This document shows, piece by piece, positions 18,601-21,600 of a DNA stretch of 64,000 nucleotides; within the stretch, counting starts at the first letter, position 1; each line of letters begins with the position of its first letter. This DNA comes from Escherichia coli (lineage in GTDB: Bacteria > Pseudomonadota > Gammaproteobacteria > Enterobacterales > Enterobacteriaceae): assembly GCF_016903815.1 (NCBI RefSeq), contig NZ_CP069973.1. One strand, given 5' to 3'. The position numbers are program-made.

Positions 18601-21600
18601 AAATGGCTTCAAACTGGATAAAGCTCGAAGTTATTACGCCGGATAAGCCGGAAATATTCAGGCTTGCTGAGATTCTGAATATTGATCCAGATGCCGCATT
18701 AGGGAAAGTCATTCGCTTCTGGGCATGGGCGGATCAACAAATGATAGACGGTAACGCAGAGTGTAACGCTCGCGGCGTTACAAAAAGTGCAATAGATCGC
18801 ATCACTTTTATGGCTGGTTTTGCTGATGCGTTAATTCAGGTTGGATGGCTGGTCGAAACTAATGGTGTGTTGTCGCTTCCTAACTTTGAGCGCCATAACG
18901 GGAAAAGCTCTAAAAAACGGGCGGTTACAAACGAGAGAGTAACAAAAATACGAGAACTGAAACGAAAAGGTAACGCTGCCAGCGTTACAAAAACGGATCA
19001 AAAAGCGTTACCAGAGGAAGAGAAAGAGGAAGATATAAATACTTATCTCCCCCTAAATCCCCCTCGCCAAAAACGAGCGTCTAAAAAATTCGAACCGGAG
19101 GCTATCGAGCTGCCTGACTGGTTGCCGGAAACACTCTGGCATGAGTGGGTTCAGTTCAGGCAGGCATTGCGAAAACCGATTCGAACGGAGCAGGGCGCTA
19201 ACGGGGCGATACGGGAGCTGGAAAAATTCCGCCAGCAGGGTTTTTCACCTGAGCAGGTGATTCGACACAGCATCGCCAACGAATACCAGGGCTTGTTCGC
19301 GCCGAAAGGTGTTCGACCTGAGACGTTACTCCGACAGGTTAACACCGTCTCGTTACCGGATAGTGCGATCCCGCCAGGCTTCAGGGGGTAACTGACCATG
19401 AAAAATATTGCGACAGGCGACGTTCTTGAACGTATCCGCAGACTGGCCCCGTCACATGTAACCGCGCCATTCAAGACGGTAGCGGAGTGGCGCGAGTGGC
19501 AACTTTCCGAAGGCCAGAAACGTTGTGAGGAGATCAACCGTCAGAATCGTCAGTTGCGGGTGGAAAAAATTCTGAATCACTCTGGCATCCAGCCATTGCA
19601 CCGCAAATGCTCGTTTTCGAATTACCAGGTGCAGAACGAAGGGCAGCGATACGCGTTGAGTCAGGCGAAATCCATCGCTGATGAACTGATGACCGGGTGT
19701 ACAAATTTTGCGTTCAGCGGAAAACCTGGTACCGGGAAGAACCACTTAGCGGCAGCTATCGGGAATCGCCTGCTGAAAGACGGTCAGACAGTGATTGTGG
19801 TTACCGTGGCTGATGTTATGAGTGCCCTGCACGCCAGCTATGACGACGGGCAGTCAGGCGAAAAATTTTTGCGGGAACTGTGCGAAGTGGATCTGCTGGT
19901 TCTTGATGAAATTGGCATTCAGCGCGAGACGAAAAACGAGCAGGTGGTACTGCACCAGATTGTTGATCGCCGGACAGCGTCGATGCGCAGCGTGGGGATG
20001 CTGACAAACCTGAACTATGAGGCCATGAAAACATTGCTTGGCGAGCGGATTATGGATCGCATGACCATGAACGGCGGGCGATGGGTGAATTTCAACTGGG
20101 AGAGCTGGCGTCCGAATGTCGTCCAGCCAGGAATTGCGAAGTAATTTTTACCGGGAGAAAAATTTAATGGAGACTGTTTTTGACGTACTGAAAGCAATGG
20201 GAAAAGCCACATCCATAGAACTTGCTGCGCGACTTGATATCAGTCGTGAAGAAGTGCTGAACGAACTATGGGAACTGAAAAAGGCTGGTTTCGTTGATAA
20301 AAGCGCGTACACCTGGCGTGTGGCTGATAACAACGTTCAGCAGGAACAGCCAGCGCCGGCAGAACTGCCGGAAGAAACTACCACGGCAACAGTCGCGAAA
20401 ATTTCAGAGAGCGATTTAACTGCGACGATTGAACAACGTGGACCACAAACGGCGGATGAGCTGGCTACATTGTTTGGTACCACATCACGCAAAGTGGCTT
20501 CAACGCTGGCAATGGCAATCAGCAAAGGTCGTCTGCTTCGCGTAAATCAGGGCGGTAAATTTCGTTACTGCATACCGGGCGATAATTTACCAGCAGAGCC
20601 GAAAGCAGCATCGGTAGCGGAAACTGCTGGTAAGGCCTTTCCTCAGCCCGCAGGTGTTGCGTTACCAGTACAGGAGGCTGCAACACAGGAAGATATTAAA
20701 ACAGAAACTGTGGCGGACATTGTGCAGTCGCTGCCATCGTTTACTGAAACGCGAGCGGATGACCTGGTTTTACCATCACTGCATATGGCAAACCGCGAAC
20801 TGCGTCGGGCGAAAAATCATGTCCAGAAGTGGGAGCGTGTCTGCGCCGCGCTGCGGGAGCTGAACAAGCACAGGGATATTGTACGACAGATTACTGATTC
20901 TTCCCGCCATGTTGCATCGGAAAAGTGATTGCCGGAGGCACCTATGGCAAAAGTATTTACACCAGAAGAGCGGGAAAAAATTAAAGGGCAGGTTGTTGAA
21001 CTTGTACGTCTGAGCGGTCGCGAGACGTTACGGGCTCTGGAGGCTAAAACCGGTGCATCAAGGTATTACATAAGCACTCTCGCCAGAGAACTGGTCGCCA
21101 GTGGTGATGTTTACAATTCAGGCTACGGATTATTCCCGTCTGAGCAGGCGCGTAAAGACTGGCAAAACGCCCGCAAAAAACTATCGAGGGCAAAGGTGAA
21201 GAAACCTGCTGTAGTTGATCCGGACCTTATCTGGTCATTACCAGACGGAGAAATACGCCGCTATGACAGGCGTCTGAATATAATCTGTCGCGAGTGCCGG
21301 AAGAGCGAAGTCATGCAGCGTGTACTGGCGTTCTATCAGGGTAATTTTCAGGATGTGCTGTTGTGAGCCAAATTAACAATCAGGGAACTGCGTGAACTGA
21401 AAGAGAAATCATAATCCAAATCTGAATAATTAAATTTAGCACTGTAAATAAAATTTAATCCTTAACCGGAGGGGGGGGCTGCACCCTCAAAATATTAGGA
21501 GGCGGCCCGAAAGGGCGGTAATGAAAAATGACTGAATTAACCAAAAAGCAATTAATCGAAGAAGCTAAATTAAAAATAGCGATTGAGAAATGCCACCCCA

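What the first reader, a model, noticed from the sequence alone, without database searches (positions are those of the whole stretch)
21440..21527. G8 homopolymer in the intergenic region upstream of a hypothetical phage gene
GGAGGGGGGGG lies at 21468-21478, about 50 bp upstream of the ORF at 21528, in an AT-rich spacer. Long G runs are unusual in E. coli and can act as slipped-strand switches affecting promoter spacing. They are also prone to sequencing error, which matters given the other homopolymer-linked frameshifts in this prophage.
Basis: seen in the sequence. Interest (0 to 1): 0.25.

Follow-up and report, generated by a model that had tools for sequence, protein, structure and literature searches.

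The report
Slippage-prone G8 run in prophage leader
The run of eight Gs is real and its length drifts between 6 and 9 among otherwise identical Rac-type E. coli prophages, but it lies in a transcribed spacer between two phage genes rather than in a recognisable promoter, so it is most likely an ordinary mutable repeat and not a genetic switch.

Summary
GGAGGGGGGGG is at 21468-21478, with G8 at 21471-21478, 49 nt before the ATG at 21528. One G8 in 64 kb is what composition predicts (1.17 expected).

The window is 100% identical over 40.4 kb to the Rac-type prophage at ttcA in E. coli strain 7/2. The tract lies in the 161-bp spacer between a DUF977 gene and a 167-aa phage ORF.

The spacer carries a conserved "connector" found in about 1,200 E. 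coli records upstream of many different genes. It consists of:
- an AT-rich stretch with stop codons in all three frames;
- a GGAGGG/CCCTC hairpin;
- AGGAGG, a 16-nt GNRA hairpin, then a start codon 6-11 nt later.

Relatives read GGGATTT or GGGATTC where this lineage has G8. GGGGTTT and GGGGGTT intermediates exist.

With an exact 90-nt context, complete genomes show G6=2, G7=10, G8=84, G9=10 and G10=0. Alleles track sub-lineages, yet at least four independent changes occurred within near-identical haplotypes, so the tract is hypermutable.

No credible promoter flanks it; the best pair scores 8/12 with a 20-bp spacer. Predicted Shine-Dalgarno accessibility barely changes from G6 to G10.

Verdict: a near-neutral, slippage-prone repeat in a leader. 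The promoter-switch idea is unsupported. The connector is the more interesting object.

The parts
20944..21366 (+). Upstream gene, a DUF977 family protein (ydaW-like) in the early-right operon of a Rac-type prophage
   Evidence: Pfam DUF977 at E=1e-28. RefSeq CDS WP_029702111.1 in the identical strain 7/2 sequence.
21367..21527 (+). 161-bp intercistronic spacer that holds the tract
   Evidence: No terminator-like or promoter-like site was found inside it.
21420..21467 (+). AT-rich front half of the conserved connector. It has stop codons in all three frames and an imperfect palindrome, CTGAATAATTAAATTTAG, at 21422-21439.
   Evidence: Stops by frame are listed. Conservation across loci is shown.
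21468..21473 (+). Shine-Dalgarno-like GGAGGG, the 5' arm of hairpin 1. The same motif is a working-position SD 7 nt before an ATG where a gene is inserted (L080).
21471..21478 (+). The G8 homopolymer. It replaces GGGATTT or GGGATTC of relatives and ranges from 6 to 9 in the same context.
21484..21488 (+). CCCTC, an anti-SD-like motif that forms the 3' arm of hairpin 1 by pairing with GAGGG
   Evidence: Predicted hairpin energies are -7.2 kcal/mol (consensus) and -8.8 kcal/mol (window). The arm is near-invariant across loci. L185 has CCTTC, which keeps a G-U pair.
21497..21502 (+). AGGAGG, the likely Shine-Dalgarno sequence of the downstream ORF, 25 nt before the ATG
21503..21518 (+). Hairpin 2: CGGCCC-GAAA-GGGCGG, against the consensus CCGCCC-GAAA-GGGCGG. 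It lies between the SD and the start codon and leaves 9 nt to the ATG.
   Evidence: Energies are -11.2 kcal/mol in the window and -15.5 kcal/mol for the consensus. 94% of cells are paired across 48 variants, and two pairs show changes on both sides. The start codon lies 6-11 nt after the hairpin in 60 of 74 contexts.
21455..21523 (+). Match of the window to the covariance model of the conserved core. It is the only copy in the window.
   Evidence: 79.6 bits, against about 100 bits for typical copies.
21476..21508 (+). Predicted lineage-specific alternative helix. GGGCUGC (21476-21482) pairs with GCGGCCC (21502-21508), covering the SD and opening hairpin 2.
   Evidence: It appears in RNAfold centroid and MFE structures and scores -18.5 kcal/mol on the local fragment. 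This is a prediction only.
21462..21493 (+). The only promoter-like hexamer pair that spans the tract: TTAACC (21462-21467), a 20-bp spacer, then CAAAAT (21488-21493)
   Evidence: 8 of 12 matches, which is chance level for this stretch.
21528..22031 (+). Downstream gene: a 167-aa phage protein of unknown function
   Evidence: phrog_660 at E=3e-50. No Pfam or NCBIfam hit. RefSeq WP_000137958.1.

Best explanation
The G8 run is a lineage-specific, slippage-prone mononucleotide repeat in the transcribed spacer between two early-right-operon genes of a Rac-type prophage. It sits inside a conserved connector that ends the upstream reading frame in any register and supplies a ribosome-binding site for the next gene. 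That site is an AGGAGG placed 25 nt from the ATG and brought to about 9 nt by a 16-nt GNRA hairpin, like the split Shine-Dalgarno sites of T4 genes 25 and 38. The run arose from the family's GGGATTT by stepwise substitutions that extended the pre-existing GGG at constant length. Once it reached 7 or more it began to gain and lose single Gs by strand slippage. The length changes are most likely nearly neutral and not a regulatory switch. Shown: position, ancestry, polymorphism, and the absence of a good promoter. Inferred: transcription through the spacer, the split-SD function, and neutrality.
For: Context: the window is identical to strain 7/2 and its Rac-type prophage, with all flanking genes on the same strand.

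Ancestry: relatives read GGGATTT (88 copies) or GGGATTC (23). GGGGTTT/C (5) and GGGGGTT (2) intermediates occur in other backgrounds. All G7-G9 copies share one sequence background.

Polymorphism: G6=2, G7=10, G8=84, G9=10 and G10=0 with exact flanks.

Heritable but recurrent change:
- Haplotype B is G7 in 5 of 5 copies.
- Three G9 genomes from different laboratories share a downstream IS5.
- Haplotype A carries G7, G8 and G9, and so does haplotype C.
- This requires at least 4 independent changes, against 8 or fewer SNPs per 850 bp.

No switch signature:
- No promoter or terminator in the spacer.
- The best hexamer pair spanning the tract scores 8/12 with a 20-bp spacer.
- The predicted unpaired probability of the SD is 0.33-0.39 for G6 through G10.

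Connector function:
- The start codon lies 6-11 nt after hairpin 2 in 60 of 74 unique contexts, covering at least 8 downstream protein families.
- The hairpin is kept in 94% of cells.
- GGAGG serves as the SD position of an inserted gene in L080.
- The T4 precedent is described in PMC3014915.
Against: The window lineage carries about 9 changes clustered in 35 nt of an otherwise strongly conserved core: ATTT to GGGG(G), CAGAACATCAGG to CAAAATATTAGG, and CCGCCC to CGGCCC. This could reflect selection rather than drift. Two of those changes together create a predicted 7-bp alternative helix that sequesters the SD. Covariation support for the hairpins is weak: two pairs with changes on both sides, reached by 45 of 500 shuffles. 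No expression data exist, because K-12 Rac has this region deleted. Part of the length spread may be assembly error.
Confidence: 0.68

Rival explanations
1. Phase-variable promoter. The tract lies in the spacer of a weak sigma-70 promoter, TTAACC-N(12+n)-CAAAAT, so that shortening toward G5-G6 turns on transcription of the 167-aa ORF independently of prophage induction.
For: It is the only hexamer pair spanning the tract. Its -10-like CAAAAT has the key A at position 2 and T at position 6, and it exists only in the G-run lineage; relatives have CAGAAC. Tract length does vary.
Against: The score is 8 of 12, which 16 hexamer pairs reach in 180 bp. The spacer is 19-21 bp at the alleles that make up 104 of 106 genomes, and 20 bp at the mode. 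The stricter scan finds nothing. G5, which would give the optimal 17 bp, was never seen in this background. There is no TG extension.
Confidence: 0.07
2. RNA-level translational modulator. The G run changes the fold of the leader and so tunes or switches translation of the 167-aa ORF. This could work through the lineage-specific helix GGGCUGC:GCGGCCC that hides AGGAGG, or through a two-tetrad G-quadruplex that needs GGA plus at least 8 Gs.
For: The alternative helix dominates predicted structures for G6-G10 and lowers SD accessibility from 0.52 (ancestral core) to about 0.36. It depends on a second lineage-specific change, CCG to CGG. With quadruplex folding allowed, G8 and G9 form GG-A-GG-G-GG-G-GG but G7 cannot.
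Against: Without quadruplexes, accessibility is flat across G6-G10. The whole leader is no more stable than shuffles (z = 0.13). Two-tetrad quadruplex energies in the model are generous. G7 and G9 lineages persist with the same intact protein, and one G7 lineage has the ORF broken, so there is no sign of selection on the length.
Confidence: 0.12
3. Sequencing or assembly artefact. The true tract has one length, and the G6-G9 spread, or the G8 call itself, reflects homopolymer error.
For: Homopolymers are the commonest long-read error. Three chicken isolates from one project read G6, G6 and G7.
Against: G8 is found in 84 complete genomes and 7 IMG/VR contigs. G7 co-segregates with haplotype B SNPs in 5 of 5 copies from different sources. 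G9 is shared by IS5-marked genomes sequenced in the USA and Japan.
Confidence: 0.08

Closest known systems
Simple-sequence contingency loci: homopolymeric tracts in promoters or ORFs of Neisseria, Haemophilus and Bordetella (e.g. PMC5084427, PMC1891110)
   Same: It is a G/C mononucleotide run of 7 or more, lies upstream of a gene, and its length differs among near-identical strains through several independent gain and loss events.
   Different: The tract is not flanked by credible -35 and -10 hexamers and is not in an ORF. The host is mismatch-repair-proficient E. coli. The tract lies in a prophage operon that is repressed in lysogens. The length distribution is narrow (6-9, mode 8), and no phenotype or expression link is known.
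Split Shine-Dalgarno sites bridged by a hairpin: T4 genes 38 and 25 (Nivinskas 1999 and Malys & Nivinskas 2009, as reviewed in PMC3014915)
   Same: This comparison concerns the element next to the tract. A strong SD (AGGAGG) lies 25 nt from the AUG, and a stable 16-nt hairpin between them reduces the spacing to 9 nt. T4 gene 25 goes from 27 to 11 nt and gene 38 from 22 to 5 nt. The hairpin is conserved across relatives.
   Different: Here the same cassette precedes at least 8 unrelated genes in lambdoid prophages, rather than one orthologous gene. No mutational or probing evidence exists. The G run is outside the bridging hairpin.
Conserved gene-boundary ('linker') sequences proposed for lambdoid phage mosaicism (modular evolution; from my own knowledge, not retrieved here)
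   Same: A short conserved non-coding sequence sits at junctions between interchangeable accessory genes, with different genes on either side.
   Different: This one has internal structure: two SD-like motifs, two hairpins and stops in all three frames. That suggests an expression function in addition to, or instead of, a role as a recombination substrate.
Two-tetrad RNA G-quadruplexes in 5' leaders
   Same: GGAGGGGGGGG can in principle supply four GG tracts with 1-nt loops, and it lies 18 nt from the SD.
   Different: This is a prediction only. It needs at least G8, there is no conservation because relatives lack the run, and such quadruplexes are marginally stable.

Membership tests
SSR phase-variable promoter (contingency locus) | Mononucleotide run long enough to slip (about 7 or more) | tested here: met
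   G8 at 21471-21478.
SSR phase-variable promoter (contingency locus) | Length differs among closely related strains through independent events | tested here: met
   G6/7/8/9 = 2/10/84/10. At least 4 independent changes within haplotypes A and C.
SSR phase-variable promoter (contingency locus) | Tract lies between the -35 and -10 hexamers, or in an activator site, of a promoter | tested here: not met
   No site in the consensus scan. The only spanning pair scores 8/12 with a 20-bp spacer, which is chance level. Relatives lack the -10-like hexamer.
SSR phase-variable promoter (contingency locus) | Expression of the downstream gene switches with tract length | not testable with these tools
   Needs reporter fusions or RNA-seq of G7, G8 and G9 lysogens.
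Hairpin-bridged split Shine-Dalgarno site (T4 gene 25/38 type) | SD-like sequence too far from the start codon (more than about 13 nt) | tested here: met
   AGGAGG at 21497-21502 and ATG at 21528, giving a 25-nt spacing. There is no other good SD in the 9 nt before the ATG.
Hairpin-bridged split Shine-Dalgarno site (T4 gene 25/38 type) | Stable intervening hairpin that restores a 5-11 nt effective spacing | tested here: met
   16-nt hairpin at 21503-21518, -11.2 kcal/mol in the window and -15.5 kcal/mol for the consensus. The residual spacing is 9 nt here and 6-11 nt in 60 of 74 contexts.
Hairpin-bridged split Shine-Dalgarno site (T4 gene 25/38 type) | Hairpin maintained in relatives, ideally with compensatory changes | tested here: inconclusive
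   94% of cells are paired and 15 cells have G-U one-sided changes, but only 2 pairs change on both sides, and 45 of 500 shuffles do as well.
Hairpin-bridged split Shine-Dalgarno site (T4 gene 25/38 type) | Destabilising the hairpin lowers translation and compensation restores it | not testable with these tools
   Needs mutagenesis and toeprinting.
Any curated RNA family (Rfam 15) | Covariance-model match at or near the gathering score | tested here: not met
   Window 20500-22600 gives only noise hits outside the spacer, with E of 0.46 or more and scores far below gathering.
Intrinsic terminator | G+C-rich hairpin followed by a U run | tested here: not met
   None in 21367-21527 on either strand. 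Hairpin 2 is followed by UAAUGAAAA.
RNA G-quadruplex | Four G tracts of at least 2 with short loops, folding shown by cation dependence | tested here: inconclusive
   The sequence requirement is met only for n of 8 or more. Folding in vitro or in vivo is not testable here.

The most novel reading that the evidence does not exclude
The tract is a heritable, reversible translational dial. At G8 or longer, the leader can form a two-tetrad G-quadruplex or the SD-sequestering helix next to a hairpin-bridged ribosome-binding site; at G7 or shorter it cannot. Slippage would then switch output of a phage early gene at the RNA level in E. coli, a species not known for SSR phase variation. Separately, the surrounding connector would be a portable expression cassette combining three-frame stops with a split SD, reused by over a thousand prophages.
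Probability: 0.08. Interest if true: 0.55.

Novelty: new member of a known kind. Interest (0 to 1): 0.2.

Why it matters
As it stands the tract matters little. It is a mutable homopolymer that should be treated with caution in assemblies and SNP or indel typing of Rac-type prophages. It also serves as a worked example of a run growing by substitution (GGGATTT to GGGGTTT to GGGGGTT to G7) and then slipping. If tract length did alter expression, it would be a rare case of SSR-based switching in E. coli phage genes. The conserved connector around it is unannotated and absent from Rfam. It precedes at least 8 gene families in about 1,200 E. coli records, and it is a testable candidate for a reusable split-SD translation cassette that could explain how shuffled accessory genes stay expressed.

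Tried and rejected
- Rfam search of 20500-22600 at E up to 10: only noise outside the spacer.
- Consensus promoter and terminator scan: nothing in the spacer. A permissive hexamer scan gave only chance-level pairs.
- Whole-leader folding: the window version is no more stable than shuffles (z = 0.13). A relative's version is modestly stable (z = -2.0).
- Covariation test on 48 distinct cores: weak. The pattern used to fetch the sequences also fixed the hairpin 1 arms, so that helix could not be tested there. A scan anchored downstream showed the region is simply near-invariant.
- Covariance model R1 searched over 1.13 Mb of prophage loci for diverged extra copies: only half-elements in L026, L047 and L080. 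The window has a single copy.
- Mini-ORF idea: the reading frames from CTG or ATT after GGAGGG have no plausible start codon or spacing, so this was rejected by inspection.
- boxA/boxB (nut-like) idea: no boxA, and the hairpin always abuts a start codon, so this was rejected by inspection.
- K-12 MG1655 Rac, to reach published expression data: the region is deleted between ydaW and rzpR.
- Species-representative genomes: no match to the core. Two matches to the SD-hairpin half are E. coli phage DNA in mis-binned Collinsella MAGs.
- Full-text search for the element's sequence strings: no papers.
- Searches on lambdoid boundary sequences and on the Rac ydaW region: nothing specific.
- G10 query: no full-length match.
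Full report
**Observation.** The sequence reads ...TTAATCCTTAACCGGAGGGGGGGGCTGCACCCTCAAAATATTAGGAGGCGGCCCGAAAGGGCGGTAATGAAAAATGACT... GGAGGGGGGGG is at 21468-21478 and the G8 run at 21471-21478. The downstream ORF starts at 21528. It is the only G or C run of 8 or more in the window. That is what base composition predicts: dinucleotide-preserving shuffles give a mean of 1.17 such runs, and 59 of 100 shuffles have at least one. The feature is real but is not a statistical anomaly in itself.

**Context.** Window 1300-41700 is 100% identical to E. coli strain 7/2 (NZ_CP023820.1). There the region is a full-length Rac-type prophage integrated next to ttcA. Its gene order is:
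- intR, xisR, ralR, recT, recE, kilR, sieB and a racR-like repressor;
- then, rightward, ydaS-like, ydaT, a hypothetical gene, ydaV, DUF1627 and DUF977;
- the 161-bp spacer;
- a 167-aa hypothetical gene, and KilA-N on the opposite strand;
- hok, the lysis genes, trkG and the structural genes.

The upstream gene is DUF977. The downstream protein matches only phrog_660, of unknown function. Three deposited phage genomes carry the identical 161 nt, including G8. K-12's own Rac has this spot deleted, so K-12 transcript maps cannot help.

**What the tract sits in.** BLAST of 21300-21700 showed that the intergenic part, not the flanking genes, is the widely shared piece. About 1,200 E. coli records hold it, between many different gene pairs. 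Alignments define a conserved core:

ATCCTTAAC(C/A)GGAGGG-ATT(T/C)-CTGCACCCTCA-GAACATC-AGGAGG-CCGCCC-GAAA-GGGCGG

Upstream of the core is an AT-rich stretch. In the window this stretch has stop codons in all three frames. Downstream, a start codon follows 6-11 nt after the core in 60 of 74 unique contexts. These contexts cover at least eight unrelated N-termini, such as MTELTK..., MRKFKIIIETG..., MKHYLEKNYPRK..., MGITKERLL..., MQEIKENIR... and MLTLKHFID....

AGGAGG is therefore 22-27 nt from the start codons, with a 16-nt GNRA hairpin exactly in between. In the window the spacing is 25 nt, falling to 9 nt without the hairpin. This is the arrangement shown experimentally for T4 gene 25 (27 to 11 nt) and gene 38 (22 to 5 nt), where the hairpin brings a distant Shine-Dalgarno sequence (SD) into range (PMC3014915).

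The first GGAGGG, the one the G run is fused to, is also SD-like. In locus L080 a 69-aa gene is inserted between the two halves of the element. There TGGAGG sits 7 nt before that gene's ATG, and the second half (GGGAGGCCGCCCGAAAGGGCGG) follows its stop codon and precedes the next gene. In the usual "empty" form, GAGGG pairs with the anti-SD-like CCCTC.

My reading is that this is a reusable intercistronic connector that stops the upstream frame and starts the next gene. The evidence for it is positional and comparative. Covariation is weak: hairpin 2 is paired in 94% of cells, but only two pairs change on both sides, and 45 of 500 shuffles match that.

The element is not in Rfam, and its sequence strings are not in the searchable literature. 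It was not found in species-representative genomes, apart from E. coli phage DNA mis-binned into two Collinsella MAGs.

**Origin of the run.** The commonest forms at the tract position are GGGATTT (88 copies) and GGGATTC (23). GGGGTTT/C (5) and GGGGGTT (2) occur in other backgrounds. G7, G8 and G9 occur only in one background, that of the window.

The series keeps the segment at 7 nt until G7. This fits extension of the GGG by successive substitution of the neighbouring base, followed by slippage once the run is long.

The same lineage also changed CAGAACATCAGG to CAAAATATTAGG and CCGCCC to CGGCCC. The second change puts a G-G mismatch in hairpin 2, weakening it from -15.5 to -11.2 kcal/mol. 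With these changes the window copy is among the lowest-scoring of about 100 copies against the family model, at 79.6 bits against about 100.

**Is the length variable?** Yes. I used 88-92-nt queries that differ only in the number of Gs. With queries this short, a single indel drops identity below 99%. Full-length exact matches in complete E. coli genomes were:

| Tract length | Genomes |
|---|---|
| G6 | 2 |
| G7 | 10 |
| G8 | 84 |
| G9 | 10 |
| G10 | 0 |

. A further 43 or so records have an extra SNP in the context; strain DP051, for example, is G9 with CTGCGCCC. IMG/VR contigs gave G7=6, G8=7 and G9=1.

I compared 290 bp to the left and 560 bp to the right of the tract in 26 copies:
- Haplotype A, identical to the window, carries G7 (1 copy), G8 (6) and G9 (5).
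- Haplotype C, which differs at six SNPs, carries G7 (3), G8 (1) and G9 (1).
- Haplotype B is G7 in all five copies.

Three of the G9 genomes (USA blood, USA colon, Japan faeces) share an IS5 insertion just downstream. That allele is therefore inherited and not noise. Length is heritable within sub-lineages, yet it has changed at least four times where flanks differ by 8 or fewer SNPs. This is the signature of a hypermutable site. Some calls are probably errors: three chicken isolates from one project read G6, G6 and G7.

**Does it act as a switch?**
- *Promoter.* The consensus scan finds no promoter or terminator in the spacer. A permissive scan finds one pair spanning the tract, TTAACC-N20-CAAAAT, at 8 of 12 matches. 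Sixteen pairs in 180 bp reach that score. Its spacer is 12 + n, giving 20 bp at G8 and 19-21 bp for 104 of 106 genomes. G5, which would give the optimal 17 bp, was not seen in this background. Relatives lack the -10-like hexamer. The promoter-spacing idea is therefore unsupported, though not strictly excluded.
- *RNA fold.* The G-run leader is predicted to prefer a new helix, GGGCUGC (21476-21482) with GCGGCCC (21502-21508). This helix needs both the run and the CCG-to-CGG change, and it covers the SD. However, the predicted SD accessibility is 0.33-0.39 for every length from G6 to G10, against 0.52 for the ancestral core. Length itself is not predicted to matter.
- *Quadruplex.* The only length threshold I found is that GGA plus 8 or more Gs is the minimum for a two-tetrad G-quadruplex. 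This is speculative.
- *Selection.* G7, G8 and G9 lineages encode the same protein, WP_000137958.1. One G7 lineage has the ORF broken by an internal stop. Neither observation argues for selection on the tract.

**Conclusion.** The tract is a real, lineage-specific, slippage-prone G run in the transcribed leader of a phage gene of unknown function. It most likely evolved by run extension followed by slippage and is close to neutral (confidence about 0.7). The rivals are an RNA-level modulator (about 0.12), a sequencing artefact as the sole cause of the variation (about 0.08) and a promoter-spacing switch (about 0.07).

It is an ordinary member of a known kind, a mutable mononucleotide repeat. 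The conserved connector with its apparent split Shine-Dalgarno site is the more interesting object and is recorded under things noticed in passing.

Noticed in passing
window 21420-21527 (core model match 21455-21523): An unannotated, widely conserved intercistronic connector. It consists of an AT-rich stretch with stops in all three frames, a GGAGGG/CCCTC hairpin, and AGGAGG followed by a 16-nt GNRA hairpin and a start codon 6-11 nt later. It precedes at least 8 unrelated phage gene families in about 1,200 E. coli records and is not in Rfam. It resembles the hairpin-bridged split SD of T4 genes 25 and 38.
   Followed up: partly
L080 6780-7100 (also L026, L047): A 69-aa gene is inserted between the two halves of the connector. 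The first GGAGG then sits 7 nt before its ATG, and the SD-hairpin half follows its stop codon. The two halves therefore look like separable gene-boundary modules.
   Followed up: partly
window 22028-22111 (+), terminator-like hairpin 22122-22146: A 27-aa hydrophobic ORF (MTWPEAFTTVGIAMAVALVVYSICRWG) overlaps the stop codon of the 167-aa ORF through ATGA and is followed by a terminator-like hairpin. It is not annotated in the identical RefSeq record.
   Followed up: no
L185 1230-1430 and L186 620-820: Contigs labelled as Collinsella sp. MAGs carry typical E. coli lambdoid prophage sequence, including the connector. This is probably mis-binning. No species-representative genome matched the core otherwise.
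   Followed up: partly
phage record PP818812.1, 11316-11419 (hit H56): A phage deposited as an Actinobacillus pleuropneumoniae phage holds the E. coli connector at 88.6% identity next to an Ead/Ea22-like gene. The host assignment looks odd.
   Followed up: no
L001 1728-2069 and L148 898-1239: In the G7 haplotype B prophages (AR_0077, ST2747), the ORF downstream of the tract is annotated as a pseudogene with an internal stop. The gene is therefore dispensable in lysogens.
   Followed up: no
L144, L145, L146 at about 1639: Three G9 genomes from different laboratories (GN02461, MS 69-1, KN13-4) share an IS5 insertion about 235 bp downstream of the 167-aa ORF, in place of the KilA-N gene end. This marks a clade in which G9 is inherited.
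   Followed up: partly
window 21455-21637 (-): A 60-aa antisense ORF reads the tract as a PPPP stretch. It overlaps the start of the 167-aa ORF and has no support, so it is almost certainly spurious.
   Followed up: no
window 1300-41700: The RefSeq annotation of the identical strain 7/2 sequence shows no frameshifted prophage gene. The only defects are a frameshifted host MFS transporter and an IS1-truncated dgcM, both outside the prophage. Other long runs in the window are G7 at 39950-39956, C7 at 57113-57119 and A8 at 37459-37466.
   Followed up: partly
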